Both the position numbers and the translations under genes were made by a program. This document shows, in pieces, positions 506-64,000 of a stretch of DNA of 64,000 nucleotides. The notes under the pieces are model-generated. The model worked only from the letters and a program-made list of their open reading frames with translations. It ran no database searches and was not told where the DNA came from. The number at the start of each line of letters is the position of its first letter. Within the stretch, counting starts at the first letter, position 1. This stretch comes from Naegleria gruberi (taxonomy: Eukaryota): assembly GCA_000004985.1 (NCBI GenBank), contig GG738846.1, one strand, 5' to 3'.

Positions 506-2143
506 ATGCCATTAACATATCAAAGAAAAATGTCAAACAGCACCACCTCAACTCACCCAAATGCCACTCCCATGCAATTAACTGCCGACCACATTGAATC
601 TTCTAATGACAACTCACCAACTCTGATAGAATTAAAAGAAGTTAACAACAAGGAAGAAGAAGAACAAACTCAACAACAAGAAACAAACTTTGAGGATGAC
701 AATGATGTCTGTAGTGATTCAGATAGTGTCTATGTTCAGGTTGCTACCAGAAAAACTCAACGTCTTACCCTCACTTCTATCAAACCACAAATTGACAAGT
801 TTCGAATAGATAGAGCTCAAAATTCATCACCAATTGCTTCCGGAAATGTTGCTGGAAACAATCTAACTACTGTAAAGAAACCAACAACCGAATCAATCTT
901 CACCAAAACAACTGCAAAAACAGGGAAATCTGGCAAGTCCTCTCTCTCTTCTGTCACCTTTCGAATTCCAACATGTTGTGGTATGATTGAATTGAATCTA
1001 GTGAGAGTCTTATCTCTATTGGGAATGTTATTGAATATTGGTGCATTCATTGCCATTGCAGTGATTGTTGGAAATGCTTTCAAATTGGATGCCAAGAAAG
1101 AAACTAATCTCCTCTTGCTCAGAACGGAATTCTTGACCAATTACTATAAAATAGATTGCATTGTCAAGACGGCATGTGTAACTGGTGATATCCAACTCGT
1201 TGCTGAATATAACATGCTGCAACCCAATGCTAGTCAGCAATTACTGGAATTGAAGAAGAATCTTCCGGCCGAATCTTTGAAAAATCTCAAATTGGATTTT
1301 GCCTCACCTCAATACGTTGGTCTGAACAATCTCATTATGGGTTATATTGCACAAGGAGATTTGGATTCTGCCAACTCTGTTCGAAAAAGTTTATCCTATC
1401 TCATTATGGATGGCTATACTAATATCCTTTTAAATATAGTTCGTACGGAAATTGATAAATTAAGTGAAGAGAAACAGGATTATTTGAGATTATTTGGAGC
1501 TGTCAATATGAGTATGGTTTTATTTGGTGTGGCTATTAGTGTGCCAATTGTCTTGTTGATTTTCGCCATTGCATTGTCGACAGATGTGGCCAGTAAGAGA
1601 AAGCTCAATAAGGCAACAGGTATCATGATTATGGAAGCAATTGCAAGTGAAAAGTACAATCCAATATTTAAAACATTTTGTGAGAAGGAATCATGTTTGG
1701 ATTATTTTACATTATTGGATAATTGTCATGATTATCATGAATTATGTGATAGAGCTCATGATTTGAGATATTCTAATCATACATATGGCAATGATCATTC
1801 AGAATTGAATTCTGCCTCATCAATTTCTGAAGACAAAATCCACAAGGAACAATTCGAAACCATTGAACGAAACAAGTATGAGGTGGCATTTAAGATATTT
1901 TCCGAATTCATTGATCCAAATGGTGAAACTCCAATCAAAACAAGTAAGATACTCCAAGACCGAGTAAAGAATGTATTGGATGAATTTAATGTTGGCAGCG
2001 TATTGGACGATGATTTGTTTGATGAATTGGAAAAGCAAGTGTGTGAAATGATTAGTGAGCACTTTATTAAATTTAAACAACAAATCAAACAAAAAAGAAG
2101 ACAAATTAATTCAAAAAACAAGATTGAAAAGGTCAATAAATAA
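506..2143 (+). CDS. membrane protein with tentative C-terminal RGS-like domain
   Basis: ATG at 506 sits in an A-rich context. The uninterrupted ORF is 545 aa and ends with TAA at 2141-2143. Two hydrophobic helices are present (VRVLSLLGMLLNIGAFIAIAVIVGNAF; MSMVLFGVAISVPIVLLIFAIAL). The C-terminal ~130 aa (…VAFKIFSEFIDPNGE…DDDLFDELEKQVCEMISEHFIKF) resembles the second half of an RGS fold, but this is a weak call. Confidence 0.5.
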   Translation: MPLTYQRKMSNSTTSTHPNATPMQLTADHIESSNDNSPTLIELKEVNNKEEEEQTQQQETNFEDDNDVCSDSDSVYVQVATRKTQRLTLTSIKPQIDKFRIDRAQNSSPIASGNVAGNNLTTVKKPTTESIFTKTTAKTGKSGKSSLSSVTFRIPTCCGMIELNLVRVLSLLGMLLNIGAFIAIAVIVGNAFKLDAKKETNLLLLRTEFLTNYYKIDCIVKTACVTGDIQLVAEYNMLQPNASQQLLELKKNLPAESLKNLKLDFASPQYVGLNNLIMGYIAQGDLDSANSVRKSLSYLIMDGYTNILLNIVRTEIDKLSEEKQDYLRLFGAVNMSMVLFGVAISVPIVLLIFAIALSTDVASKRKLNKATGIMIMEAIASEKYNPIFKTFCEKESCLDYFTLLDNCHDYHELCDRAHDLRYSNHTYGNDHSELNSASSISEDKIHKEQFETIERNKYEVAFKIFSEFIDPNGETPIKTSKILQDRVKNVLDEFNVGSVLDDDLFDELEKQVCEMISEHFIKFKQQIKQKRRQINSKNKIEKVNK

Positions 2144-6835: not shown

Positions 6836-7688
6836 TCAATTACATGTAAGTGAATAGTTGGGATTTTCAATCCAATCAAACAAGTGCTCATGTGGAAAGA
6901 TGGGATTTCCACAATTTGGATTTGAGAGTGTCTCGTTTGTGGTGAGTAACATTAAATCTAGAGATGGTGTATGTTTTGGGCTTCCCATTGCATTAAAGTG
7001 AAGCACCCTAACACAAGATGTGATGCAGTTTTGATGACCAGCATATTGCAAGTGTAGTCCACATTCCATTTCATGAATCCATGCTCTATTCGTTATTCTA
7101 TCGAGAGTATTGAGCACATCCTGATCAGCCAATAGTGTCTCTCCNNNNNNNNNNNNNNNNNNNNNNNNNNNNNNNNNNNNNNNNNNNNNNNNNNTACAGA
7201 TACTCCCAGGCATAGATTAGACCATCAAAACCATGAACCAAGAAGGTATCTGCATCCAAAAACAAGAAATGTGCCAATTTATGTTGAAAGAATTCAATCA
7301 GCTTTAACTTCTTGTTGGCAGAGGCAGCACTATAATGTGTCGATTTGGCGTCAACAGACAACTCGTTCGACTCATAGAATTTCAACGAAACTCTCTCACA
7401 AGAACCAAATCTCTTCACAATACAATCGATGGTATTGGTTGAATTCATGAAAACATGTAGAGTTACATGGTGGGGAGGCGAGGGACATGATGGAAGAGCT
7501 AACAATGGAGAGGCAACCTTTTCTGAGTTTTCATAGATTACCACAACATGCATGAGATGTCCAGCTCCAGCAGCACCAGGTTGTTTTGAAGAATATTTCT
7601 GGTGCGAGTAGAGAAAATGTCTTTCCAGGAGGAATGTTATGAGAGAGAAACAGAGAATTGGCAAAATGACTTTAAATTTATAATTCAT
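6836..7688 (-). CDS. type-II-membrane/secreted protein with DXD motif (possible glycosyltransferase); interrupted by 50-N assembly gap 7145-7194
   Basis: ATG at 7688..7686, followed by an N-terminal hydrophobic anchor (KVILPILCFSLITFLL) and an LFLDADTFLV motif. The same frame continues on both sides of the gap to a stop at 6836-6838. Confidence 0.4.
7145..7194. other. assembly gap (50 N)
   Basis: Run of N. Confidence 1.
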
Positions 7689-8429: not shown

Positions 8430-11400
8430 TTATATATTGAATTTGGAAAGAATATTTGCTAAACGATCTGCAACCTCATCAAACGAAGGTCTCTCATCTG
8501 GATTTTGATCCCAACAATCTTTCATCAAGTCAATATACTGATCCACAACTGAAACTAAAATGTCAATATCCATATATTTCTTGTCATCTTTCATATACTC
8601 CTTAATCCATACCATACTGATCTCTCTTCAACAGTAGAGAATGGAATTTTAGGTCTGAATCCTTTGGAAACTTTGAGTGGAATACTGAAACTATTCACAT
8701 CTGTTATCTCAGACTTTGAAAATCTATTAATTTTTTCAGAACTTTGATTAATGTATGGATTCTCCTCAAAAAGTAACTCATACATTACAATGCCAAAACT
8801 GTAGACGTCCAACTTGTTAGAAATTGAAATATTACTGTCACCAATCAATTCCTTAATAAATTAATTATGAATAATGTTAGTACAAATACTTACAGGCTTT
8901 AAAGACAAGTTATTATACTATTGTTCAATTAATTAGTATTACTTACAGCCATATAAAGGATACTTCCTAAATTGGTAGTCATATTGGTTGAATTGGTATT
9001 TCCAATCAATTTAGACAATCCAAAATCACAAACCTTGGGTTGCATATTCTCATCTAATAAAATGTTAGCACTTTTTAAATCTCTATGAATAATCATTTTC
9101 GGTTTCAAGTTATGTAAATAACTCAAACCGTTAGAAACTCCAAATAAAATACGAATCTTATCAATTAGTTTGATCATTTTTCTTTTCAATCGAAGTTCAC
9201 TAATTAACTTATCCAATGAACCACCTCCAAGATATTCCATAACCATTAACTTTCTTCGATCTGTGATACAAACACCAAAGAATTGTATAACATTTGGATG
9301 TTTCAAACTGTTGAGTAAAAGAACTTCTCTTTCAAATGTATCTTCCTCCTGTTCTATCTCATCATCTTCATTGTAATCTACACTTTTAATAGCAACACTA
9401 ACTTGCTTCCATCTGGCTTTGTAAACCTGACCGAAACCACCTGAACCTATTTTCTCAACTAATTCTAATTCTTCTATTGGAATCAAATAGGATAATTGCT
9501 TTCCTCTTTCATCCTCTAATTCTAATTCAATATCGAGAAGCTTTTTTTCCATTTCCATTTCTGTCTTTTTTCTCTTATTCCAATACCTGTTTTTGTAAAT
9601 ATAGAGAGCTACACTAACCAGTAAGAAAAATACAAGACATGAAACCAACACTCCAACTGGAACTAGAATTTTGTAAAGCAGATTTTCATCCACATTACAA
9701 AGCTTTCCTGAAAACCCATCATGACAACTACAATTATTAGGACCAATACAATCACCATATCCAGAGCAAGATTCCACACCAATATTTCCAAAACAGATAG
9801 GAGTTTCACATTGCTTGCCAACATACATTGGTAAACTGTTATTGAATTGTTTGCAAACACAATTGTCCTTACTAACACAATTGCCATTTCCTCCACAAAC
9901 CAATTGATCTGTTGATAGGGTAGATATTGAATAACATGTAGGAATGGAGCAATCTGGACCAGCACTTCCTGTTAGACAACTACAAGTATCATAGCCAACA
10001 CAAAATCCAGAACGTTGGCACACTGTGAAATTATTCGAATCAATACCAAAACAACTAGTATGTTCACAATTATCTCCAAAATAGTTCTCTTGACAAACAC
10101 AATGGTCTGTTGAAACACATTTGCCTCTTCCAGAGCAAACTTGATTTGATTTTGATAACACCTCATAGCACATGAAGGAAGAGCAATCATTTCCAAAATA
10201 ACTAGTCTTGCATTTGCAGGTATTATAATCTACACAATTCCCCCAACCACTACAAACAAATGATTGATTGGTTGACGGGATGTTAAAACACGTTGTAATG
10301 TTACAATGAGGTCCAAAATAGCTGTTATCACACTGGCACTTGTCTATTCCAATACATTTACCGTGATTACATCCAGATTCTAATTTACCAAAACAAGTAA
10401 ATTGAGAACAATTTGTATTACCATAACCATAATTGCACACACAATAATCTGAAGATTGACAAATGCCATGTCCAGAGCAAACACTCGTGTCATTATAAGC
10501 AATTCCAAAACAAGATTTGTAATTTTTAGAGCTGTAAGACTGAATCAATAGATTTGAACGAGGAGAACTATATGCATTTCCTGTAAGGTCAATTAACCTT
10601 CCATAATAAACATATGAAACAGCAACGTATGAATTGGTTGCAGATATAAAAACTGAGTTCACATTCGTACCATTCACACGCAAAATCCATTCTGCATCCC
10701 TTAAATTGTTATCCAATGATTGAACTATAATTTCATTGTTTCTACAAGAATCAAACCTTGCTGCAATAAAAACAAGTGACTCGGTACCTGTCACTGAATA
10801 AATTGTAGATTTACAAGAACTCAACTGATTTGAAAGCATTACATTTTTTGTTTCAAGTTTTGGTAAACTCAATTCCACACATTCTAAAATAGTATTTGAA
10901 CCACACAGAATAACAGATGCTGTTCTTCTAACTATATATGTGTTCACTGTTGTAGAAAGATAAGATAGAATAGTACCATTTTGATAAAGTAGCATGACAT
11001 AATTTCCATTTAAACCATTTTTCTCAATTTTGACCAAGTTATTATCTGAATCTCTCCATGTGGTTGATTCACCTTGTGTGAAAAATCCAGTTAACACTAA
11101 CAAATCCATTCCACTAACTGATACTGGGTATATTCCAGTTACTAGTCTTGGATTTTTTCCCATGTCTTCAGTTGCAAAAGTTGTATCAATACTTTGAACA
11201 ACCCATTGTCTACTCCAATCTTTCAACCTTAACATTAAAGCGAAGGTATTGTAAACTTTTCCAGCTGAATCTTCATCACGAAAAACTTCAACTCCAAAAC
11301 TATTCGAATCACCAACATATCCAGTTACAAACAAGGAAGATCTATCGAATGCCAAACTCAAAATATTACCATAATAAACAACCATTTGTTGAGCCCACAG

Positions 11401-11805
11401 TCTTTCACCACTCGTGGCATTGTAAATCATCAATCCTGGACCTCCTGTGGCAAGAAAATCACAACAGGGCCATGAAGTTAGCAGAGAAACAGCCACATAT
11501 TCACAATCACCATTATTTTCAATTGATGTTTCTATGGCAGTCAATGTCGTTCCACAAGCTTCCAAAATCTCTGATTTGTACCATAAAATTTCATTGGTGG
11601 TCAAATCCATCTTTACCAAAAACATGTTACACTGATCATTCTTATACTTTGGATGCTTGATAATAATAGTTGGCGAAATACCAATGGAATTTCTAAAAAC
11701 ACCTCCAAAGAATATATTATTTCCAACCGCTTTGTGTTTAGCACTCTCTATTGCTCCAGTTTCGTTCAAGGTGGTGAAAGGAAAGAGCAAAATGAACCAA
11801 ACCAT
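8430..11805 (-). CDS. receptor-like protein kinase: signal peptide, large extracellular region, ~10 Cys-rich EGF/laminin-type repeats, TM helix, kinase domain (3 exons: 11805..8947, 8851..8599, 8554..8430)
   Basis: ATG at 11805..11803 with a signal-like MVWFILLFPFTTL. Repeated CxxGxGxCxxxDxCxCxxxYxGxxC modules. TM helix LVPVGVLVSCLVFFLLVSVALYIY. Kinase motifs GSGGFGQVYKA, HRDLKSANILLD, DFGLSK and DVYSFGIVMYELL. Intron 1 is 8852..8946 (GTAAGT…TTATTAAG). Intron 2 is 8555..8598 (phase-1 GTATAT donor; acceptor TTTTAG, or CAG six nt later at 8549-8554). Splicing restores the subdomain XI motif …YIDLMKDCWDQNPDERPSF. TAA at 8430-8432. Confidence 0.65.
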
Positions 11806-25556: not shown

Positions 25557-25606
25557 NNNNNNNNNNNNNNNNNNNNNNNNNNNNNNNNNNNNNNNNNNNN
25601 NNNNNN
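25557..25606. other. assembly gap (50 N)
   Basis: Run of N. Confidence 1.
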
Positions 25607-27399: not shown

Positions 27400-27575
27400 A
27401 ACGCGCAATTGACGTCAAGAATTATCGTCAATTCTTAATGATTTATTATCAATTTTTGACGTCAAAAATTGATAATAAATTGATAATGTTTTGTATCAAA
27501 TATTGATGAAAAAACATCAATAATTACGTCAAAAAATTCATAATAATTATTGTCAATTATTGACTAAATTCCAGC
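27400..27575. promoter_or_regulatory. cluster of TGACGTCA (CRE-like) palindromes and TTGATAAT/ATTGAC repeats
   Basis: Perfect TGACGTCA at 27410-27417 and 27467-27474. TTACGTCA at 27524-27531. The inverted GTCAAT…ATTGAC pair at 27552-27566. Interspersed TGATAATAAATTGATAAT repeats. No ORF. Confidence 0.35.
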
Positions 27576-28066: not shown

Positions 28067-29235
28067 NNNNNNNNNNNNNNNNNNNNNNNNNNNNNNNNNN
28101 NNNNNNNNNNNNNNNNNNNNNNNNNNNNNNNNNNNNNNNNNNNNNNNNNNNNNNNNNNNNNNNNNNNNNNNNNNNNNNNNNNNNNNNNNNNNNNNNNNNN
28201 NNNNNNNNNNNNNNNNNNNNNNNNNNNNNNNNNNNNNNNNNNNNNNNNNNNNNNNNNNNNNNNNNNNNNNNNNNNNNNNNNNNNNNNNNNNNNNNNNNNN
28301 NNNNNNNNNNNNNNNNNNNNNNNNNNNNNNNNNNNNNNNNNNNNNNNNNNNNNNNNNNNNNNNNNNNNNNNNNNNNNNNNNNNNNNNNNNNNNNNNNNNN
28401 NNNNNNNNNNNNNNNNNNNNNNNNNNNNNNNNNNNNNNNNNNNNNNNNNNNNNNNNNNNNNNNNNNNNNNNNNNNNNNNNNNNNNNNNNNNNNNNNNNNN
28501 NNNNNNNNNNNNNNNNNNNNNNNNNNNNNNNNNNNNNNNNNNNNNNNNNNNNNNNNNNNNNNNNNNNNNNNNNNNNNNNNNNNNNNNNNNNNNNNNNNNN
28601 NNNNNNNNNNNNNNNNNNNNNNNNNNNNNNNNNNNNNNNNNNNNNNNNNNNNNNNNNNNNNNNNNNNNNNNNNNNNNNNNNNNNNNNNNNNNNNNNNNNN
28701 NNNNNNNNNNNNNNNNNNNNNNNNNNNNNNNNNNNNNNNNNNNNNNNNNNNNNNNNNNNNNNNNNNNNNNNNNNNNNNNNNNNNNNNNNNNNNNNNNNNN
28801 NNNNNNNNNNNNNNNNNNNNNNNNNNNNNNNNNNNNNNNNNNNNNNNNNNNNNNNNNNNNNNNNNNNNNNNNNNNNNNNNNNNNNNNNNNNNNNNNNNNN
28901 NNNNNNNNNNNNNNNNNNNNNNNNNNNNNNNNNNNNNNNNNNNNNNNNNNNNNNNNNNNNNNNNNNNNNNNNNNNNNNNNNNNNNNNNNNNNNNNNNNNN
29001 NNNNNNNNNNNNNNNNNNNNNNNNNNNNNNNNNNNNNNNNNNNNNNNNNNNNNNNNNNNNNNNNNNNNNNNNNNNNNNNNNNNNNNNNNNNNNNNNNNNN
29101 NNNNNNNNNNNNNNNNNNNNNNNNNNNNNNNNNNNNNNNNNNNNNNNNNNNNNNNNNNNNNNNNNNNNNNNNNNNNNNNNNNNNNNNNNNNNNNNNNNNN
29201 NNNNNNNNNNNNNNNNNNNNNNNNNNNNNNNNNNN
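28067..29235. other. assembly gap (1169 N)
   Basis: Run of N. The six-frame ORFs spanning it are artefacts. Confidence 1.
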
Positions 29236-43600: not shown

Positions 43601-46229
43601 ATGAAAGAACATGATATTGAACAATTTATTGAATGGTCCCACAACATTGGAGCCTTCAAACATGAAAATATTGACTTGAAATTCATCTCCTCCGAGTGTG
43701 GTATCGGAGGTATTCTAACATCAGACATTCAAGCCTCTGAAGATGATCAAGTGGATTTATTATCTGTTCCTTTGGAAAATTGTTTAAATGTTAGGAATAT
43801 GAATAGGGAATTTAGAGATTTAATATCGGAATTGAAATTAATTGCTGATGGAAATAATGATAAGAATGAAGAACTTGCTTCTCAGTGGAAGGGAACAAAC
43901 ATGTTTGAAAATGGATTAATTGTTTTCTACATGTTTTTAATTTATGAGTTACATGTTGAGAAGGAGAAGAGTACACACTTTCCATATTTGAATTTATTAC
44001 CAAGGGAATTTACTACAGCTCTTTATTTTGATGAAGATGAAATGGCTGCATTGAGATCTACCAATTTGTACAAATCTGTGCAGAGTATTAGACAAAATTT
44101 GAAGCAAATTTACGAAACGAAAGTGGAATATTTAATGAACAAGTATCCACAAAAGTTTGATAGACAAGTGTTTAGTTATGAGAATTTCATGTGGGCTTTT
44201 TCTGCTGTTTGGTCAAGAGTTTTTCCAATTGAATATCCTGCAGAGAATGGAGAAGGTGTGGAAATTGTTCCAACATTATTGCCAACAGTTGACATTTTGA
44301 ATCACAAATTTAATGCCAAGATTACATATTTCACAGGATCTGACAGAAGATTCTACTTGAAAACAAGAGAATCTCTCAAAAGCGGAGACTATGTCTGCAA
44401 CAATTATGGAGCAAAGAGTAATGATTCATTCTTATTGAGTTATGGATTTGTCATTCCAAATAATTCTGAAGACACTCTCTATGTTCAATTTGGTATTTCT
44501 GATGATGGCAATGAAGAATTGGTTCAATTCAAGAAAAAGTATTTGGAAGACAATTCTCTCAAGTAAGTTTTATAACATCTTTATCTTGATAATATTCCAA
44601 TAGTCTTGGATTTTATCTCAAAAAACAACAACTGCCAGAAGACATGCTAGATTCCATTCGTATCTGTATGATGACCGAAGATGATTTTTATCTTGCCAAA
44701 CAATCAACAATCTCTCAACACAGAGAACAATCTAAGGATTCTGTCTACAGATTCAGTGTAAAGAATGAATTCAAAATGCTTCACACACTGAGGTCATTGT
44801 TCATATCAAAGAGACGTCTCTTCCCAACCACTATTGAAGAAGATGAAGAAGAGTTGAGTGAAGAAACCAACTTTAACATGCAAAATATTCTCATTTACAT
44901 AATTGGACAAAAGAAGATTATTGAAAATGCCTTGAAATGCATTGATGAAAAACTCTCTACTTTGCTTGGAACCTATACCAAACTTGTGGACAATAATAAT
45001 CATCAGGAAAATATTCTCCAAACCATGAAGAATATCTTTATTGAAAATAGTGGAAAATTATCTGTGGAAATGAGACCAGAATTGAATTCTTTCCATGCCA
45101 TTTCCAAAGAATCCATCTCAAAAGGTGAAATAGTAATGATTGTCAAATCAGAGGAATTAATAGATGTGGATAATGCTCTTGATTCCCCGTTTGGAGAATT
45201 CTACACTGAGGCAAGAGAGGAGGATCTCAGTGCCAATCTCGATGATGAAATGGCTGTCATGTTTTACATTATGTTTGAAATGTTCTCCTCTCCAAATTCA
45301 CCTCTCAAGTCCAATAATCACAAAAAGTTTTTCAATCTCCTTCTCAAGCATTACAATTTCCAAGAAACTCCATTCCTCTCCGAAAAACTTCAAGATGAGC
45401 TGAGTGGAACCAATACCCTTGATTTGATTCAGAGAACAAGAGATGGACTTTCTGAAGTTTTCGAGGAGATTAAGAGTGCCCTCATACAGTCTGGTGTAAG
45501 TTTTCATTCTCTAATTTTTTACTGAAATTTATATTTTCACAGTTGCAAGATGAGGAAAATGTAATGACCTTTGAAAACTTTCTAGTTGCCTATTCAGTAT
45601 TTGATTTGTTCGCTGTTGGATCAGAGACTGTATTACCAATACCAGCAATTTCACAATTAGGCAGCTTTTTGGTTGAGTTTGATGATGGAAATCTTGTGGT
45701 TAAAAGTTTGATTGACATTCCTAAAGATAAGATTATTACCTTCTCTGCCCTTTCACTCACAAAACCAATCGAAGACTTACTCATGTACAACATTTATCCA
45801 ATTGATTATGAATTGGCCTTGCCTAATGTAAAACATGCCATTGGTATTGATTTGGAATCTTTAGAATCTCTCATTACACAACAAAAGCTTGACATTTTGA
45901 ATTTTTTGAACAATTTATCCTTCACTCACTATTTGACAAGAGGTAGAAAGTGTAGCCTTCTTCCAATCCAATTAGGAGTTTTATTTACTACAGATGAGAT
46001 TGCACTTTCAAACCTTCTCAATCAAAAAAAGATTGAAATTAACATGTTTGATTCGTCAGTCATGGAGAATGTGAATCACGTCATTAGTGCAATGGTTGAA
46101 AACTTTGCAAGTGCCTTCTCAGAGAATGAGGAAGCAGTAGAAGAAATCAGAACACTGTCAAGTATAGAACAGAATGCAAAACTCTTCTTTCCTCACTTCT
46201 TTCAGAATAAAAACCTTCAATTTTATTAA
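43601..46229 (+). CDS. SET-domain protein-lysine methyltransferase (SETD3/Rubisco-LSMT-like), 3 exons (43601..44562, 44604..45495, 45543..46229)
   Basis: ATG at 43601. SET motifs …LPTVDILNHKFNAKITYF… and GDYVCNNYGAKSNDSFLLSYGFV. Intron 1 is 44563..44603 (41 nt, GTAAGT…CCAATAG, phase 2). Intron 2 is 45496..45542 (47 nt, GTAAGT…TTTTCACAG, phase 0). Both join three track ORFs in frame. TAA at 46227-46229. Confidence 0.6.
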
Positions 46230-48708
46230 ATTCTAATAAGGACAATCCATTCTTTTCATTATTATTGGAAGTGCTTAAATTTTGTAAAACGCACTTGACA
46301 TGCTTCATGGTTGGTCTTTCAGCCCAGTCCTTTTTCAATAAATTCAAAACCAAATCAATAGCAATTGGATTGACTTCCTTCTCCACAAGCTCAGCCCTAA
46401 TGTTATTATAGGCCAATTCATAATTTTTCAAAATTGCATCAGACATGAAATAGGAAGTACTTTCCAATCGAACCTTTGTACGGAATGTCAATAGATTGTA
46501 CAATAAAACTCCAAAAGAAAAACTATCTGTAGCCCTCAAATTCTCTCTAGACATTTCGGCTTTTGATTTCAATTCAGGAGAAATTGTTGGTAATGAACCC
46601 AAATAGAGAGCATGTCTTCTCATTTGAAAGTCTGGACTGTCTCTTGTAATCTTGATTACATCTTGTCTTGTCGATTGCAAGTAACCAAAATCTGCAATCT
46701 TGACACATTTAGAAATGCAAGACGGATCTAAGAGAACATTTTCCACCTTAATATCTCTGTGAACCAAATCTAACTGGTGCAAGTAATTAATTGCATCTGC
46801 AATTTGATAGGCAATCTTGAAAGTATCTGGGAGTGATTCATCACCCTCAACTTCTTCATGATAAAAGATCAAACTAGTCAGTGTATCATAAAAAGGCATA
46901 ACTATATGACAATAGGTTTCTTTGTCTGTCTCACTATTACAAAAACCATCAAGGTATGGAGTGAGATGTTTGTGGGAGAGCGATTTGATTTGGGAAGTGT
47001 GTTGGAAGAACTCGTCAAGCTCTGCATTGGTAATTTTCATGTGTTTGATTGCTACAGTTCGATTATCAGTTTTGGATATGTACTTGTGCAGAATACCTTC
47101 TGCTCCACGCCCAATCTCCTCTACGAGTGTGAAATGTTCTAGAATTTTTTGATTAGTCTCGATATAGGTTTCCTCAATAATTGGAGTTGTATTGGTTGTA
47201 GGTTTCTTCTTTTTTCCAATTTTAATGGTGTTAAATTTGAGTTTACCACCATCTTCCAACTCTATATTATTAATACTATTTACAGTACCAACTCGGTGTA
47301 GAATGGTATAATCTTTACAAGTAAAGATATTTCTAATTGAAGTGTTGCTGAGCTTGAGTGATTCCACAATGTGTGGAGAAATTGGTTGTGGAAAGTTTGT
47401 AGAGATATTACTTCGCCACAGCTGATGGTTATTATTACTGCCCCAAGAATAGATCAATCCACTGATTGTCCTAACCACAGTATGACTATCCCCTGTATCT
47501 ATGGAATGAATCTTCTCCTCTCCAAATAGCTTTTTTTGAAGCTGTACAGGTTCGAATAATTGCTTGTTAATGGAAGGGCTGAAACCTAATTGACCCATGT
47601 GATTTCCTCCAAAAGCATAGAGTTCATTATTGAGGGTAAGAACTATAGAGAAATTGGAGCCTGCGGAAATCTTGCTAATTTGTGATTGAATTCCTTTCAC
47701 TCTATTCAATTGTAAAATGAATTCCTCATGTTTTCCAACTCCTGTTTGGCCAAATGAGTTATGGCCAAACGAATACAATAGTCCTTCAGTAGAGACTGCC
47801 AAAAAATGACCATATCCAACACTAACAGATCTAATAGTAACACTTCCATAATCTCTCTCTGCCTTTTTAATATCTAAACTACCTTCCAAAATTTGAGTTT
47901 CAAAATTTTCAGTGAATGTGTAATAAATCTGACCATCAATAGTCAACCACACTGCTAAACCTCCTTTGTATTGGAAATCTGCTACATTTTCTTTCAATAT
48001 ACTAGCCACATTAGAATTAATTAAATCTTGAATATCTATGGCCTTTCCATCGTTCCACACGTAGAATTCTCCCAATAATTTATCTACAATAAACAATATT
48101 CTTAATTGTGAATTTGTTTCTCTATTTACATTTGAAATGACTTGTTCATTTTCCTCGAATCTATTTGCACGATATGGTGCAGATCGTACAATGTATCTAT
48201 TTAATGAAGTGGAATCTGTCGAAATATCCTCCTCTTCGTCCAATTCTAAAAGTTTTAGCTTTTTCTTCAATTCTGTCCTAATACTTTCTTCCTCATTCAT
48301 GGTCCAAACCATAAAGTCTTCATAAATTTCAAAATCTGAATTCTTTAACAATAGTAATTGATTTGTCTTGCTTCTGACCATTAACAAGTCATCATCGGAT
48401 TGACCTTGAAAACATGATATTTCAAGGTCTTGTGTAAGAAAACTATCTGGTAATGTATTGTCCTCCAATACGAGGATTGAATTGTTTCCACGCCCTGTTA
48501 TCATCAAGGAAGGCCTTTTTACATTATCGTCATCATTAGTACTAGTTGAGAAAGAATGCTGATGAACATTTGATTTGGCCATCGAATAGAAAACCTCTTC
48601 ATGTTGATTACCATGTATCACTAGTACAAATAATTTGAATATCAGCAATATGAGGAGGCAAGCCTTCAATAATATTATCAATGTTGGTGATGAGGTGAAT
48701 GCTTTCAT
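46147..48708 (-). CDS. transmembrane RCC1-repeat protein kinase
   Basis: The first ATG is at 48708..48706; the track start is TTG. Signal/TM MKAFTSSPTLIILLKACLLILLIFKLFVLVI. RCC1-like repeats (GYGHFLAVSTEGLLYSFGHNSFGQTG…; YAFGGNHMGQLG…; YSWGSNNNHQLW). Kinase motifs IGRGAEGILHKY, VAIKHM, HRDIKVENVLLD, IADFG. The 3' end overlaps the convergent SET gene by 83 nt. Confidence 0.55.
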   Translation of the reverse strand: MKAFTSSPTLIILLKACLLILLIFKLFVLVIHGNQHEEVFYSMAKSNVHQHSFSTSTNDDDNVKRPSLMITGRGNNSILVLEDNTLPDSFLTQDLEISCFQGQSDDDLLMVRSKTNQLLLLKNSDFEIYEDFMVWTMNEEESIRTELKKKLKLLELDEEEDISTDSTSLNRYIVRSAPYRANRFEENEQVISNVNRETNSQLRILFIVDKLLGEFYVWNDGKAIDIQDLINSNVASILKENVADFQYKGGLAVWLTIDGQIYYTFTENFETQILEGSLDIKKAERDYGSVTIRSVSVGYGHFLAVSTEGLLYSFGHNSFGQTGVGKHEEFILQLNRVKGIQSQISKISAGSNFSIVLTLNNELYAFGGNHMGQLGFSPSINKQLFEPVQLQKKLFGEEKIHSIDTGDSHTVVRTISGLIYSWGSNNNHQLWRSNISTNFPQPISPHIVESLKLSNTSIRNIFTCKDYTILHRVGTVNSINNIELEDGGKLKFNTIKIGKKKKPTTNTTPIIEETYIETNQKILEHFTLVEEIGRGAEGILHKYISKTDNRTVAIKHMKITNAELDEFFQHTSQIKSLSHKHLTPYLDGFCNSETDKETYCHIVMPFYDTLTSLIFYHEEVEGDESLPDTFKIAYQIADAINYLHQLDLVHRDIKVENVLLDPSCISKCVKIADFGYLQSTRQDVIKITRDSPDFQMRRHALYLGSLPTISPELKSKAEMSRENLRATDSFSFGVLLYNLLTFRTKVRLESTSYFMSDAILKNYELAYNNIRAELVEKEVNPIAIDLVLNLLKKDWAERPTMKHVKCVLQNLSTSNNNEKNGLSLLEFNKIEGFYSERSEERRVLHSVLYLTVF

Positions 48709-49436
48709 TCTCCAATTAATCAAAATATTTTCTTTCAAAAAACTTATTAAAAACTTTTCCGTAAGACTTTAAACACACGTAAATCGTTGGTGTTAATATT
48801 ATATTATTGTGTATACTCTTGTGAATTTGTTGCTGATGATGATGATGGTGATGGTGGGTACTACTCTCCTAAATTCAATCACAACTTATTCTTGTTGTGA
48901 ATTAATCATACTTGGTATTTTTTTCTGTTATTTTTTTAATGCATTCTTTTGGTGGTGAATTTGATATTTAATTTTGGAGGGAGATTTGTGAGTGTTTTGG
49001 GTGATTTGAATGATCTTGATCCCCAAAAGTTGAAATGCATTTGGTAAGGTGTCGAGGAATGTGTATGAAAAAGTAGGACGGATGACAATTGAATGAAATA
49101 TTTGAATGTTGTTTCTTTAAGCATTTTCTTGTTTTGATTTGTGACAGTAGTAAACTCAAAATTAATTGATTGATGGTATATTTCCAATTAAAGAGTATTT
49201 TCATTTATTGTATATTAGATAATACCAGTAATCCTAATTGGTTTTTCCTTTCTTAAGGCTGCCACAAGGAAGAAGAAACTTGCAAATAACAAGTGGAATC
49301 CAGCAACTGCTGTTTGAACACAAAAGAATGAATAAACACAACCACTTTGTTAAATCATTCCATAATCATATTTGTAAGTATTTTGCATAAATAGTTTAAT
49401 AATTTCTCTATTAATTGAAATGGATGAATTAACAAC

Positions 49437-60394: not shown

Positions 60395-63300
60395 TTATTC
60401 TTCATTTGGTTGATCATCTAATAATTTACCATTATTTTTTTCTGATAAAGCTTCATCATCCTCATTTTCAGAATAATAGGCCTCACTTCCACCATCATTA
60501 ACATCCAAGTAATTGATTGCCAATTGCTTGTTTTCAGCTTCTTCCAAATCAATTGATAGGAATTTTGAAGTATCAATTCTGGCAGCTTGAGGATTTGGAT
60601 TTTGATGATGTTTATCCTTGAGTAAATATGTTTCCATTTTCCCCTTTCCTTTAACATCTACCTCTCTAGTTTCGAATTCAAATAAATCATAAACTCTTTC
60701 ATAAGTTGCTCTTGAAATTTGAATCCTTCCTGGTTCACCTGTAGATTCCATTCTTGAGGCAGTATTGACAGCATCTCCCCACAAATCATAGGCAAACTTT
60801 GAACTTCCTAATACACCTGCTGTTACTGATCCTGTGTGAACACCAACACGAATGTTTAAATTTGTATTATGTTTGACATTGTAATTGTATAAAATTGTAA
60901 ATTGACCCATTCCAAAATTAATAACCTTTTCAGGGTGATCTGATTGCTTTTGATGCAAACCACCAGCAAGGAAATAGGCATCTAAATTAAATGATTAATT
61001 ACTATACATGCCAAATATTATCAACAAAACTTACCACCAATGGTTTTAATCTTTTCAAGAGAATAGGTTTCACACAACAAGTCAAACTGGTTGACAATAA
61101 TATTCAACATTTCTACAACTTGGTGTGGTTCCAAATGACTACTCAAACTAGTGAAACCAACAATATCACTAAATAGACAGGTAACATCTTTAAAGTTTTC
61201 ATAAATATTAGTTTCACCTGCTCTTAATCTATTGGCAACAGGTAATGGTAAAATGTTAAGTAAAAGTGCTTCTGATTTGGTTTTTTCTTGTGCCATTAAA
61301 ATGGAATGTTTCAATTCGGAGGTAATATCCTTAATAAAACATGAAATAATAATTGTTCTCTTCTTATCATTAGGATCTCCCAATACTGAAACACATAAAT
61401 TAACTCTTGCTGGGAATGCCTTTCCGTTCTTTCTTTTGGCTTTTAACTTTTCAAATGTTTCTCCAAAGTTGCTAGTAGCATTCTTCATTCTCTCCAGAAC
61501 TGAATTTAGAGTGTCAACAACCTTCTTTTTAGAAAATAGAACAGCCAATCCAGTTCCAATAATTTCTGTAATTCTATAACCAAACATATCTTGTGCAGCT
61601 TGATTGAAAAATCTAATAGAACCATCTACATTACAAATGATAGATCCTTCTACAGTTGAATCAAGGACAGCCTTAACCTGGGAGAATGCTTGTTCATCTT
61701 CCTTATCATTATTTGAATCTTGGAACATTTGTAATATTCTATTCATGCCCTTCAATTTTCGATTCTTTCCATTGTTGCTTGATGCTGTCGAATTGTATTG
61801 ATAGTGAAGAGCATAATCTCTTAATTGATCATTTGAATCGATAAATTCCCATGATACATAATTGAACATAATTCTCATCTGATGGATTTGAGCCCAATAT
61901 CTATTGAACATATTATTACCTAAATAGAATAAAAATAGGCAAGCAATAAATCCAATAGAGGAGAACACTCCTGACAAATATCTGGAAGGATGCTGGTGCA
62001 AATCAACATAGGTATCAATGAAAGCATACAACTTGTAGGCCATAATTTTAGAAGCACTGTAAAATTGCATAAACTTGATATATATATCACGTGGGCCAAT
62101 AGTATGATGATAAGCTTGATTATTCAATTGATCTGCTTGTGAGGCTAACATATCCAATAATTGATCCAATCCATAACAATTATAATCTGTAGAGTTACAT
62201 TGATGACTTTGTACAACTGGAATATTTTCTGAGAGAATGGATTTTCTATTGTTGTACTCTGCTCCGTATATTAAATTGTTCCAAGACTTGACTGTTAGAG
62301 CTAGATAATTTTGGTTAAGTACAAAGTTGGCATCATTTTCATTTGGTTTTAGTGGTGAATCAAACACAATTTCGTCCAATCCAAAGTTTACAACTTGACT
62401 GTTCATTAAAACTCTACCTGCTTCTGCAACATTTAACATGGCCACATACGAATCATCTAAATTCAAGAAGAATTCTGTAATGATCAAGGCACCAGATACA
62501 AATGCAAATACAATAATGAGTAAACTGATTATTAATACAGATCTCTTTGGAGATAGATAGTCTGTTTGAGATTTGTTAACTTCTTCTCTAGTGTCCTTAT
62601 CTAAACGATGGAAAATCTTACCAACTTCATCTTTACCTATTCTCTTGAATAATCTTACAAGATTATTAATTTTACGTAAATGGAAATATAAAACTAGTAA
62701 ATAGCTCAAAGACATTAACAATACAATGGCATTTACACAAACTGCAATAATTATATAAATAACTCTAAGTTCTTGTGCCACCACTTGATTTCTATCAATA
62801 AAATTCACACAAAATGATTCATATGAACGCATGAGAGGTAATCTATTGAGCCACCAAAACATGAAAACATAGGATTCATATGTTTTGTTGTATTGGAAGA
62901 TTGTTGATTCTAACAATGAATCAATATTTGAAATCACTAGTTTAGTAGTTTCAGAGAGAGAGGTATTTCTAATTTCATAAACAATCTGGCCTGGAGTAAC
63001 AATTGGCAAGTACAAAGTAACATCATCATGGGTGAAATCATTTACCATGTCAGTTGTGAATACACCGACTGTTTTAGAGAGTGTTTGTACGGTTCTAGCC
63101 TTATCTTGAAGTGTTTTCAGTCTGTCCTTGTGGGCTGAGAATGATTGCAACAGAGCTGTATCATTAATACCATTAAACTTGATTGTAGATTGAAGTGAAC
63201 GAATACCACTGGCTATCAAATGCGAAACGCTATTCATGGTACAAGCTTGTTTGACAAGGAATACTTTTGAGGAAATTTCATTAGAGAAGGAAATATTTAC

Positions 63301-63957
63301 AGCCAAGGTGATTGTAATTAGTGCCAAGCCAAACAATAGGAATACTATGAAAAATCCATAGACAAACTTGTGTTCTTCTGGTACTAGTAATGATGTTCTG
63401 TAGAGCATTTCTTTTTTCTGAGTTGGTGTCACCATATCAGATCCATTTAAACTTTCCTCATCAATTTCCTCATCGAATAAATCAACTGCAGATCTTGGTT
63501 CTTCAGGTGATGTTGGTACTATTGGAACAACCTTGTTGTGTTTGGATGAAATCTTGATTTGGTTTACAGGCTCCCTCTTTCTAACTCTCTTAGATTCTTC
63601 ATCTTCAATTATTTGTGCTTCAAAATACAAGTCAGAAGCCAATTCTTTTTGGAATAGGTAATTTTCTAAAAATCTGGCATAGGTTCTTAGTGCAGTCTTA
63701 TCTCCAGAAAAGTTAGTCATCAAATTTCCAAATAAAACTTCCAGTTCAGCAGTAATCTTTTCAATTTGTTGATTCACTCCAATGATTTTTGAATCGGAAA
63801 CTACTTCATTTTGCAATTCCTTCCAGAATTGTCTGTGGAAGTAGGCCAATTGTTGTTCTTTGGCGTCAATTTTTTGTAATAACATCTTCATTTCCAAATT
63901 ACTTGTGGCATGTCTATTGGATGAAGATGAAATGATTTCCAATTCTTTCAATCTCAT
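60395..63957 (-). CDS. membrane adenylate cyclase: 4 TM helices bracketing two extracytoplasmic loops, PAS domain, class III cyclase catalytic domain (2 exons seen: 63957..61034, 60980..60395)
   Basis: ATG at 63957..63955. TM helices FVYGFFIVFLLFGLALITITLAV, IYIIIAVCVNAIVLLMSLSYLLVLYF, VLIISLLIIVFAFVSGALIITEFF and FSSIGFIACLFLFYLGNNMF. PAS-like QVKAVLDSTVEGSIICNVDGSIRFFNQAAQDMFGY. The catalytic domain is split by a 53-nt intron (60981..61033, GTAAGT…TTTAG, phase 1), giving …EKIKTIG|DAYFLAGG… Substrate-defining residues are Lys (IKTIGD) and Asp (YDLWGD), which is the adenylate-cyclase type. TAG at 60395-60397. Further 5' exons beyond the window cannot be excluded. Confidence 0.6.
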
Positions 63958-64000
63958 TTGAATGAAATATCTGTTCAGAATATTTGGATGTTGTCTGAGT

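What the first reader, a model, noticed from the sequence alone, without database searches (positions are those of the whole stretch)
60395..63957. Adenylate cyclase with double extracytoplasmic sensor loops and a PAS domain
The topology TM1-loop(~170 aa)-TM2 … TM3-loop(~230 aa)-TM4-PAS-cyclase resembles bacterial double-sensor signalling proteins fused to a class III cyclase. It does not resemble the canonical 12-TM eukaryotic AC. The Lys/Asp specificity residues predict ATP as substrate. The catalytic domain is split by a 53-nt intron, confirming that it is a eukaryotic gene. Large families of such cyclases are characteristic of a few protist lineages and may help identify the organism.
Basis: partly seen in the sequence, partly recalled or inferred. 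Interest (0 to 1): 0.5.

Follow-up and report, generated by a model that had tools for sequence, protein, structure and literature searches.

The report
Naegleria membrane PAS adenylate cyclase gene
This is the last 72% of an already deposited but unstudied Naegleria gruberi gene for a membrane-bound, cAMP-making enzyme whose two outward-facing loops are predicted to fold like bacterial chemoreceptor sensor bundles; it is a fairly ordinary member of a large protist cyclase family.

Summary
On the minus strand there is a two-exon gene: exon 2 at 60395-60981, a 53-nt GT..AG intron at 60982-61034, and exon 1 from 61035 onwards. It encodes four hydrophobic helices, two large loops (about 175 and 162 aa), a PAS domain and one class III cyclase domain. 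All six catalytic residues are present, including the Lys/Asp pair that predicts ATP as substrate.

Three points need correcting:
- The ATG at 63957 is not the start. The frame is open to the window edge. The product is 100% identical to residues 469-1651 of a 1651-aa Naegleria gruberi "predicted protein", which has more membrane helices upstream.
- Loop 2 is about 165 aa, not about 230.
- The loops are not Cache or CHASE. No Pfam model hits them. A high-confidence AlphaFold model shows all-helical four-helix-bundle ectodomains continuous with the membrane helices, and each has a conserved cysteine pair.

The N-terminal cytosolic repeat matches Pfam TPR_TmcB. Sequence searches detect the loop module in Heterolobosea. 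The same helix spacing is seen in jakobid, archamoebal and chytrid proteins.

The most likely function is a homodimeric receptor-type class IIIa adenylate cyclase. What it senses is unknown. It is a new, uncharacterised member of a known kind, of modest interest.

The parts
61035..63999 (-). Exon 1 as far as the window reaches. The frame is open to the window edge and the true start lies beyond 64000. It encodes residues 469-1457 of the 1651-aa N. gruberi protein.
   Evidence: No stop codon up to 63999. tblastn of P0001 residues 469-1459 matches 63999-61027. P0001 is 100% identical with 100% query coverage.
60982..61034 (-). 53-nt intron, GTAAGT...TTTAG. It splits the codon (G|AT) of the second metal-binding Asp in the KTIGD motif.
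   Evidence: The spliced sequence equals the deposited protein.
60395..60981 (-). Exon 2: the second half of the cyclase domain plus an acidic C-terminal tail. The stop codon TAA is at 60395-60397.
63589..63927 (-). Cytosolic helical repeat matching Pfam TPR_TmcB (PF25474), window-protein residues 25-137. The repeat begins upstream of the window.
   Evidence: 45.4 bits against a cut-off of 27; profile positions 12-124 of 125. Model 2 is helical there. 28 of 31 family members match.
63295..63363 (-). TM1 of the in-window membrane block (residues 213-235).
   Evidence: Hydropathy 2.84. In the model it is continuous with a long helix.
62770..63294 (-). Loop 1 (residues 236-410, about 175 aa): a predicted four-helix-bundle ectodomain with a beta-hairpin. 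It has a conserved Cys pair (C253 at 63241-63243, C397 at 62809-62811) and a conserved N-x-S sequon.
62695..62769 (-). TM2 (residues 411-435).
   Evidence: Hydropathy 2.79.
62542..62694 (-). Short cytosolic linker rich in Lys and Arg, carrying the family motif K-D-x-x-G-K-I-(F/Y)-H-x-L (residues 436-486).
   Evidence: 13 K/R in 57 aa. The motif is conserved in at least 60% of 69 sequences.
62470..62541 (-). TM3 (residues 487-510).
   Evidence: Hydropathy 3.04.
61984..62469 (-). Loop 2 (residues 511-672, about 162 aa): a second predicted helical-bundle ectodomain with a conserved Cys pair (C601 at 62197-62199, C608 at 62176-62178) in the motif N-C-x...C-x-G-L.
   Evidence: Cys pair in 53 of 61 members.
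61912..61983 (-). TM4 (residues 673-696).
   Evidence: Hydropathy 2.07.
61810..61911 (-). Conserved cytosolic juxtamembrane helices (family motif R-x-M-L-N-Y), followed at 61681-61809 by a poorly conserved Asn/Ser-rich linker.
61321..61680 (-). PAS domain (residues 774-893) ending in the D-I-T motif.
   Evidence: Pfam PAS_9 51 bits and PAS 36 bits. The nearest solved relatives are the FixL and DosP PAS domains, but the heme-ligand His is absent.
61201..61320 (-). Helical linker plus cyclase-transducer-type segment (SEALLLNILPLPVANRLRAGE; residues 894-933).
   Evidence: It aligns with the helical segment before AC9 C2 and mycobacterial Cya. It is conserved across the family.
60617..61200 (-). 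Class III (IIIa-like) nucleotidyl cyclase catalytic domain, residues 934-1110, interrupted by the intron. Catalytic residues: metal Asp D945 (61165-61167) and D989 (61035 + 60980-60981); adenine Lys K985 (61045-61047) and Asp D1054 (60785-60787); transition-state Asn N1061 (60764-60766) and Arg R1065 (60752-60754).

Best explanation
The region is the 3' three-quarters of a Naegleria gruberi gene for a multi-pass membrane, receptor-type adenylate cyclase.

Shown here:
- One polypeptide carries the following in order: a membrane block outside the window; a cytosolic TPR_TmcB helical repeat; four membrane helices bracketing two loops of about 170 aa; a conserved juxtamembrane segment; a PAS domain ending in a DIT motif; a helical transducer segment; and a single class IIIa-like cyclase domain.
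- The cyclase domain has both metal-binding Asp, the ATP-specifying Lys/Asp pair and the transition-state Asn/Arg.

Inferred:
- All six catalytic residues sit in one domain, so the enzyme must work as a head-to-tail homodimer with two symmetric active sites that make cAMP.
- The two loops face outside the cytoplasm and are disulfide-stabilised and glycosylated. Each folds as a four-helix bundle that extends its flanking membrane helices, as in bacterial Tar, PcaY or TorS-type sensor domains.
- An extracellular or luminal cue, or a membrane cue, would shift these helices. The change would pass through the conserved juxtamembrane segment and the PAS domain into the coiled-coil/transducer helix, which sets the register of the catalytic dimer.
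- The PAS domain may add a second, cytosolic input.

The ligand or ligands are unknown.
For: - Organism and gene: 100% identity and 100% query coverage to N. gruberi predicted protein P0001, 1651 aa. The neighbouring genes are eukaryotic.
- Domains: Pfam Guanylate_cyc 196 bits, PAS_9 51 bits, TPR_TmcB 45 bits.
- Catalytic residues: aligned residue by residue with AC9 C1 and C2 and mapped to window coordinates.
- Class IIIa affinity: 100-135 bits per domain to animal membrane AC, mycobacterial Cya/Rv1625c, rhodopsin guanylate cyclase and the natriuretic peptide receptor, against 26 bits to trypanosome GRESAG4.
- Transducer helix: it aligns with the helical segments of AC9 and Cya. The element is described by Ziegler et al. 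2017, as cited in PMC10622942.
- Topology: four hydropathy peaks and a K/R-rich TM2-TM3 linker. The conserved Cys pairs are lost together rather than singly (54 of 56 members have both, 2 of 56 have neither). Most members have exactly two Cys per loop, and sequons are conserved.
- Family: 178 representative proteins at E<=1e-3 and 65 at E<=1e-30. Of 31 full-length members, 26 carry the cyclase domain and 28 carry PAS.
Against: - No ligand, activity or localisation data exist for this protein or any relative found here.
- Between TM4 and PAS there is a poorly conserved Asn/Ser-rich linker of about 45 aa. This argues against rigid helix-to-helix transmission of the Tar-HAMP kind.
- The models are of a monomer. 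The packing of the two bundles and the dimer could not be inspected because no coordinates were available.
Confidence: 0.55

Rival explanations
1. The PAS domain is the real sensor, responding to a cytosolic small molecule, redox state or gas. The membrane part, including the two loops, only anchors, dimerises or targets the enzyme, for example to a particular membrane compartment.
For: - PAS is present in 28 of 31 family members and is directly coupled to the cyclase through a conserved DIT motif and transducer helix.
- The nearest solved relatives of this PAS domain are the heme-PAS oxygen sensors FixL (E 4e-6) and DosP.
- The TM4-PAS linker is poorly conserved and probably flexible.
Against: - The FixL proximal His aligns to Leu here, and no His is conserved at that helix across the family. 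No cofactor can therefore be assigned.
- The loops are as well conserved as the rest of the protein, with invariant Cys pairs and motifs from Heterolobosea to Archamoebae. That degree of conservation is not expected of a mere anchor.
Confidence: 0.3
2. The roughly ten membrane helices form a transporter or channel that is functionally coupled to the cyclase, as in ciliate K+-channel cyclases or alveolate P4-ATPase guanylate cyclases.
For: - The full protein has an extra N-terminal block of about 4-6 helices in addition to the four in the window.
- Fusions of cyclases to transport proteins are known in protists (PMC13466520, listed).
Against: - No Pfam transporter or channel family hits any member.
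- The Foldseek hits to glutamate and MATE transporters have E>0.02 and TM-scores of about 0.1.
Confidence: 0.08
3. It is a guanylate cyclase, as one paralogue is named in GenBank, or a catalytically dead pseudo-cyclase.
For: NCBI names paralogue P0013 'PAS domain-containing guanylate cyclase'. The Pfam model covers both adenylate and guanylate cyclases.
Against: - The substrate-specifying positions are Lys (EKIK*TIG) and Asp (AYD*LWG), aligned with the same residues in AC9 C2. Guanylate cyclases carry Glu and Cys there (established knowledge of class III cyclases).
- Both metal-binding Asp and the Asn/Arg pair are intact.
Confidence: 0.04
4. It is a recently acquired bacterial 'double-sensor' signalling gene.
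For: The fold of each loop resembles bacterial periplasmic sensor domains. Three weak hits to the TPR part come from unnamed metagenome contigs.
Against: - Every named relative is eukaryotic: Naegleria species, Acrasis, Pharyngomonas, Andalucia, Mastigamoeba, Mastigella, Blattamonas and a chytrid.
- The gene has an intron.
- No Pfam bacterial sensor model matches.
- The catalytic domain is closest to animal membrane AC and other class IIIa enzymes.
Confidence: 0.03

Closest known systems
Class IIIa nucleotidyl cyclases: animal membrane adenylate cyclases AC1-9, and Mycobacterium Rv1625c / M. intracellulare Cya
   Same: - The catalytic fold and all six catalytic residues are shared, and the specificity pair is the ATP type Lys/Asp.
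- A helical transducer segment sits directly upstream of the catalytic domain.
- The enzyme is membrane-anchored.
- These give the best sequence scores, 100-135 bits per domain.
   Different: - There is one catalytic domain per chain, as in Rv1625c and unlike the C1+C2 of animal enzymes.
- The membrane part is not 6 or 2x6 compact helices. It is an N-terminal block followed by four helices with two ectodomains of about 170 aa.
- A TPR repeat and a PAS domain are inserted.
Dictyostelium TmcB/TmcC family (Pfam PF25474 TPR_TmcB). TmcB is a regulator of the cAMP pathway in macrocyst formation (Muramoto et al. 2005, cited in PMC12750705).
   Same: The cytosolic helical repeat matches the Pfam model above its threshold (45 bits against 27). 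Both proteins are linked to cAMP signalling.
   Different: TmcB itself could not be retrieved here. Whether it shares the loop module or a cyclase domain was therefore not tested. The link rests on the Pfam repeat alone.
Bacterial four-helix-bundle sensor domains (Tar/Tsr, PcaY_PP, PilJ/McpN, TorS, NarQ) and the NIT domain of NasR
   Different: - There is no sequence or Pfam similarity.
- Two bundles sit in one chain with four membrane helices, rather than one bundle per subunit.
- The features are eukaryotic: disulfides and N-glycosylation sequons.
- The output is PAS-cyclase without a HAMP domain.
- The fold is generic, so homology is not shown.
PAS- or LOV-regulated and other sensor-linked class III cyclases (for example cyanobacterial LOV-AC, phytochrome-cyclase fusions, rhodopsin guanylate cyclases)
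   Same: The sensor domain is joined to the cyclase by a coiled-coil/transducer helix. The DIT motif lies at the PAS C-terminus.
   Different: There is no LOV flavin motif and no FixL-type heme His. The PAS domain here sits downstream of a large membrane module.
Trypanosomatid receptor-type adenylate cyclases (GRESAG4/ESAG4)
   Same: They are protist enzymes from large gene families with an extracellular domain, a membrane anchor and a single catalytic domain that dimerises.
   Different: The catalytic domains are only distantly related (26 bits, E 6e-5). The trypanosome enzymes have one membrane helix and, by established knowledge, an ectodomain like a periplasmic binding protein.

Membership tests
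Class III nucleotidyl cyclase (Pfam PF00211) | Catalytic domain matching the family model above its threshold | tested here: met
   196 bits against a cut-off of 21.9, covering profile positions 4-182 of 183.
Class III nucleotidyl cyclase (Pfam PF00211) | Two metal-binding Asp plus transition-state Asn and Arg | tested here: met
   D945, D989, N1061 and R1065 align with the corresponding residues of AC9 C1/C2.
Adenylate (as opposed to guanylate) cyclase | Lys and Asp at the two base-recognition positions (Glu and Cys in guanylate cyclases) | tested here: met
   K985 in EKIKTIG and D1054 in AYDLWG align with the Lys and Asp of AC9 C2. Both are invariant in the three-paralogue alignment and are the majority residue in the family consensus.
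Adenylate (as opposed to guanylate) cyclase | Measured conversion of ATP to cAMP | not testable with these tools
   This needs an enzyme assay.
Class IIIa subclass | Closest similarity to membrane AC, Rv1625c and guanylate cyclases, plus a cyclase-transducer/helical segment upstream of the catalytic domain | tested here: met
   Ranking. SEALLLNILPLPVANRL aligns with the helical segments of AC9 and Cya.
Canonical eukaryotic 12-TM adenylate cyclase | Two 6-helix membrane domains alternating with two catalytic domains (C1 and C2) in one chain | tested here: not met
   There is only one Guanylate_cyc domain in the full 1651-aa protein. The membrane helices are arranged as an N-terminal block plus 4 helices with large loops.
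PAS domain | Match to PAS models above their thresholds | tested here: met
   PAS_9 51.2 bits against 27; PAS 35.8 bits against 22.6.
Heme-PAS oxygen sensors (FixL/DosP type) | Proximal His on the F-alpha helix | tested here: not met
   The FixL His aligns to Leu, and there is no conserved His in 31 family members.
TmcB/TmcC family | TPR_TmcB repeat (PF25474) | tested here: met
   45.4 bits against a cut-off of 27. 28 of 31 relatives match.
TmcB/TmcC family | Shared membrane architecture with Dictyostelium TmcB | not tested
   The TmcB sequence was not obtainable: the profile search returned only one Naegleria-like fragment.
Cache / CHASE extracellular sensors | Alpha/beta PAS-like fold and a Pfam match in the loop | tested here: not met
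   There are no Pfam hits in the loops at E<=10 or in 31 relatives. The model is all-helical apart from one hairpin.
Four-helix-bundle sensor domains (4HB_MCP/TarH, PilJ, NIT, TorS) | Sequence-profile membership | tested here: not met
   There is no Pfam hit and no sequence relative in the PDB.
Four-helix-bundle sensor domains (4HB_MCP/TarH, PilJ, NIT, TorS) | Up-down four-helix bundle continuous with the flanking membrane helices | tested here: inconclusive

The most novel reading that the evidence does not exclude
The TM-bundle-TM-TM-bundle-TM module may be an ancient eukaryotic extracellular ligand-binding receptor unit that has not been described. In it, two disulfide-locked four-helix bundles in one chain would act like the two subunits of a bacterial chemoreceptor sensor dimer and gate a class IIIa cyclase through PAS. 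If so, it would be a natural example of the proposal that the membrane domains of adenylate cyclases are receptors (PMC4821796, PMC11606603). The module would be present across Discoba, Archamoebae and possibly chytrids.
Probability: 0.3. Interest if true: 0.55.

Novelty: new member of a known kind. Interest (0 to 1): 0.3.

Why it matters
Naegleria is known to encode on the order of 80-100 cyclases (PMC9928731, which cites the genome paper), but the signals they sense are unknown. This gene shows that one sizeable subfamily combines a TmcB-type repeat, a predicted double helical-bundle ectodomain and a PAS domain on a fully competent ATP-specific catalytic domain.

The ectodomain is not covered by any Pfam model, and it gave a very confident structure prediction. 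That makes it a concrete target for ligand screening. It also makes it a test case for the question of whether membrane domains of class III cyclases act as receptors. For the genome scan itself the result is ordinary: a correctly spotted eukaryotic signalling gene that is already deposited and is cut off by the window edge.

Tried and rejected
- **Cache/CHASE in the loops.** Rejected. Pfam found nothing on the whole protein at E<=1, on each loop alone at E<=10 or on 31 relatives at E<=0.01.
- **LOV- or FixL-type cofactor in PAS.** Rejected. The FixL His aligns to Leu, no His is conserved, and no NCRFLQ-like motif is visible in the sequence.
- **Word-indexed homologue searches.**
  - The full protein gave one identical hit plus unrelated cyclases.
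  - The part without PAS and cyclase gave only two paralogues.
  - A profile of distant members (A7) gave a single fragment, so Dictyostelium TmcB could not be recovered.
  - The exhaustive HMMER search was what revealed the family.
- **Recovering the 5' part of the gene.** The look-up of encoding contigs has no record for P0001, so the start and any upstream introns were not verified at DNA level.
- **AlphaFold-database fold search.** The library was not available.
- **Foldseek against the PDB.** No significant match. Prominin/TTYH-like topology was considered, but TTYH2/3 appear only at E about 1 with TM-scores of about 0.13.
- **Internal duplication of the two TM-loop-TM halves.** hhalign gave probability 32% and E 4.7e-4, colinear over 162 columns. 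This is suggestive only.
- **Tandem paralogues in the window.** None found. tblastn hits of the paralogues fall only on this gene.
- **TmcB literature search.** Mostly irrelevant hits, with one useful citation.
Full report
**1. What is in the sequence**

The feature lies on the minus strand.
- Reading 60395-64000 in reverse complement gives a long open frame. It ends in ...KTIGGKFC* if read straight through.
- A second frame begins DAYFLAGG... and runs to a TAA at 60395-60397.
- Removing 60982-61034 joins the two frames in phase. This stretch is exactly 53 nt, GTAAGT...TTTAG.
- Splicing restores the canonical cyclase motif EKIKTIGDAYF.
- The intron splits the codon (G|AT) of that Asp.

The proposed start is not correct. 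There is no stop codon between the ATG at 63957 and the last in-frame codon at 63999.

**2. Identity of the gene**

The spliced 1183-aa product is 100% identical, over 100% of its length, to residues 469-1651 of a 1651-aa "predicted protein" of Naegleria gruberi (P0001).
- The organism is therefore N. gruberi.
- The window cuts the gene, and 468 residues lie upstream of the window.
- In the deposited protein these 468 residues comprise a Ser/Thr-rich N-terminus, at least four strongly hydrophobic helices (about six helices in the structure model) and the beginning of a cytosolic helical repeat.
- Other large ORFs in the window encode typical eukaryotic proteins: an EGF-repeat kinase, dymeclin, WD40, LRR, an SRP54-type GTPase, an RCC1-kinase, Yip1 and RGS.

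**3. Domain anatomy**

Window-protein numbering is used here; add 468 for P0001 numbering.
- Pfam finds TPR_TmcB at 25-137 (45 bits), PAS_9/PAS at 774-893 (51 and 36 bits) and Guanylate_cyc at 934-1110 (196 bits, E 5e-58). It finds nothing else, even at E<=1.
- Hydropathy gives four clear membrane helices at about 213-235, 411-435, 487-510 and 673-696.
- These helices bracket loops of about 175 and about 162 aa (one search gives 178 and 167).
- The 51-57 aa segment between TM2 and TM3 is rich in Lys and Arg (13 K/R). It carries a family-wide motif, KD..GKI(F/Y)H.L, which fits a cytosolic position.

**4. Catalytic domain**

- Residue-by-residue alignment with the two catalytic domains of AC9 places the six key residues. 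The metal ligands are D945 (FSD*IVGF) and D989 (TIGD*AY). The adenine-recognising pair is K985 (EKIK*TIG) and D1054 (AYD*LWG). The transition-state pair is N1061 and R1065 (AVN*TASR*).
- By established knowledge of class III cyclases, all six residues in one domain means a homodimer with two complete active sites. Lys/Asp, rather than Glu/Cys, means ATP is the substrate.
The GenBank name "guanylate cyclase" given to one paralogue is generic.
- The domain scores 100-135 bits against class IIIa enzymes: animal AC C1, mycobacterial Cya/Rv1625c, rhodopsin guanylate cyclase and the natriuretic peptide receptor. It scores only 26 bits against trypanosome GRESAG4 and 22-30 bits against photoactivated cyclases.
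- The segment SEALLLNILPLPVANRLRAGE just upstream aligns with the helical segments that precede the catalytic domains of AC9 and Cya. This corresponds to the cyclase-transducer element (Ziegler et al. 2017, cited in PMC10622942).
- The PAS domain ends in the D-I-T motif, which is conserved across the family.

**5. The PAS domain**

- Its nearest solved relatives are heme-PAS oxygen sensors: FixL at E 4e-6, and DosP.
- The proximal His of FixL aligns to Leu here, and no His is conserved in that helix among 31 relatives.
- No cofactor can be assigned.

**6. The family**

- Word-indexed searches found only two N. gruberi paralogues with the same layout.
- An exhaustive HMMER search used a profile of the TPR-to-TM4 region. 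It found 178 cluster representatives at E<=1e-3, of which 65 were at E<=1e-30. Many are 1400-1800 aa with the match at about residues 500-1300.
- Every named protein that matches across the loops is heterolobosean: N. gruberi, N. fowleri, N. lovaniensis, Acrasis kona and Pharyngomonas kirbyi.
- Weaker matches, to the TPR part only, come from Andalucia godoyi, Mastigamoeba, Mastigella, Blattamonas and a chytrid. Several of these are annotated as adenylate cyclases.
- Most of these more distant proteins show the same spacing of helices after the repeat: TM, about 200 aa, TM, about 80 aa, TM, about 200 aa, TM, then the cyclase. The chytrid sequence ends early and shows only three of the helices, and Blattamonas fits less clearly.
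- Several of the distant proteins also show recognisable versions of the loop-2 Cys motif and of the post-TM4 motif.
- Of 31 full-length members, 28 have TPR_TmcB, 28 have PAS and 26 have the cyclase domain. None has a Pfam sensor domain in the loops.
- A published survey reports that Cache occurs in just one Naegleria protein, a bacterial-type cyclase (PMC4822843). That protein is not this one.

**7. The loops**

- Pfam on each loop alone at E<=10 finds nothing meaningful. A profile search against PDB sequences also finds nothing.
- An AlphaFold2 model of residues 188-736, built with a 69-sequence alignment, is very confident: mean pLDDT 94.6 and pTM 0.88.
- In the model each membrane helix continues into a long helix. 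Loop 1 forms a helical bundle with one beta-hairpin, and loop 2 forms a second helical bundle.
- A longer model that includes the N-terminal membrane block and the repeat reproduces this (pLDDT 86).
- I therefore treat the match as "the loops have a sensor-compatible four-helix-bundle fold", not as evidence of homology.
- Two features argue independently that both loops face an oxidising, extracytoplasmic space.
  - Cysteine pairs: the loop-1 pair (C253/C397) is present in 54 of 56 aligned relatives and jointly absent in the other two. The loop-2 pair (C601/C608) is present in 53 of 61. Most relatives have exactly two Cys per loop.
  - Glycosylation sequons: an N-x-S/T sequon in loop 1 is kept in 46 of 60 relatives.
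- A profile-profile comparison of the two TM-loop-TM halves is colinear but weak (probability 32%, E 4.7e-4). An internal duplication is possible but not shown.

**8. How it most likely works**

The steps shown here are the domain order, the catalytic competence, the ATP-type specificity residues and the conserved PAS-DIT-transducer-cyclase junction. The rest is inferred:
- The enzyme is a homodimer.
- The two disulfide-locked bundles are exposed outside the cytoplasm and sense a cue that displaces the membrane helices.
- The change passes through the conserved juxtamembrane segment (family motif R.MLNY) and the PAS domain to the transducer helix and the catalytic dimer.

The main weakness is a poorly conserved Asn/Ser-rich linker of about 45 aa between the juxtamembrane segment and PAS. 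This makes rigid transmission less obvious. For that reason the main rival, at about 0.3, is that PAS is the actual sensor and the membrane part only anchors or targets the enzyme. The other rivals have little support:
- Transporter or channel coupling: no fold or family support.
- Guanylate cyclase or dead enzyme: contradicted by the catalytic residues.
- Recent bacterial origin: all named relatives are eukaryotic.

**9. Comparison with what is known, and novelty**

- It works like a class IIIa cyclase of the single-domain, homodimeric Rv1625c type, regulated through an upstream sensor and a transducer helix.
- It is a member of class III/IIIa and of the PAS family by the tests made here. It carries the TmcB-type repeat.
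- It is not a canonical 12-TM adenylate cyclase, not a Cache/CHASE receptor, and not demonstrably a member of the 4HB_MCP or NIT families.
- Dictyostelium TmcB is a genetically defined regulator of cAMP signalling in sexual development (Muramoto et al. 2005, cited in PMC12750705). It is the only studied protein linked to this family, and the link is through the Pfam repeat alone. I could not retrieve TmcB to compare the membrane part.
- The gene is already deposited and domain-annotated. Large cyclase repertoires in Naegleria are known (PMC9928731).
- I therefore rate the finding as a new, uncharacterised member of a known kind, with modest interest. The one less ordinary aspect is the confidently predicted double-bundle ectodomain, which no Pfam family describes.

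**10. Limits**

- No coordinates were available, so I could not inspect bundle packing or Cys-Cys distances.
- Only monomer models were made.
- The AlphaFold-database fold library was unavailable.
- The 5' end of the gene was not seen at DNA level.
- No functional data exist for any family member found here.

Noticed in passing
window 28067-29235 (also 7145-7194 and 25557-25606): These are runs of N, that is, assembly gaps. The 1169-nt run explains the apparent GC content of 13.5% at 28-30 kb and the spurious overlapping 400-550 aa 'ORFs' on both strands there.
   Followed up: yes
window 60980-61035: The 53-nt intron sits inside the codon (G|AT) of the second metal-binding Asp of the cyclase, in the most conserved motif, KTIGD. 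Whether paralogues share this intron position was not checked.
   Followed up: partly
window 63957-63999: The ORF lister reports the long ORF as starting at the ATG at 63957. However, the frame stays open to the window edge, and the 14 codons upstream (LRQHPNILNRYFIQ) match the deposited protein. This is how the false start arose.
   Followed up: yes
P0015 (N. gruberi, 1563 aa), outside the window: This paralogue of the same subfamily is recorded on a scaffold of the same length (1,001,995 bp) as the scaffold carrying this gene, so the two may be on one scaffold. It is not encoded in this window.
   Followed up: partly
P0013 (N. gruberi paralogue), PAS domain: This paralogue has a His in 'FTREHQTLV', in the stretch that corresponds to the FixL segment containing the heme-ligand His ('YRHEHDGYL'). 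The protein in the window has no His there. Some paralogues might therefore bind heme.
   Followed up: no
window 506-2143(+), 8929-11805(-), 46147-48738(-): The window also holds other signalling genes: an RGS-domain protein, an EGF-repeat receptor-like protein kinase and an RCC1-repeat protein kinase. This fits the signalling-rich Naegleria genome. No link to the cyclase is implied.
   Followed up: partly
window 27408-27506: A 47-bp tandem repeat of 2.1 copies at 75% identity lies just before the large assembly gap.
   Followed up: no
window 60398-60616 (minus strand): The cyclase is followed by a 73-aa acidic, low-complexity C-terminal tail (…NEDDEALSEKNNGKLLDDQPNEE). The two aligned N. gruberi paralogues lack it. 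Its function is unknown.
   Followed up: no
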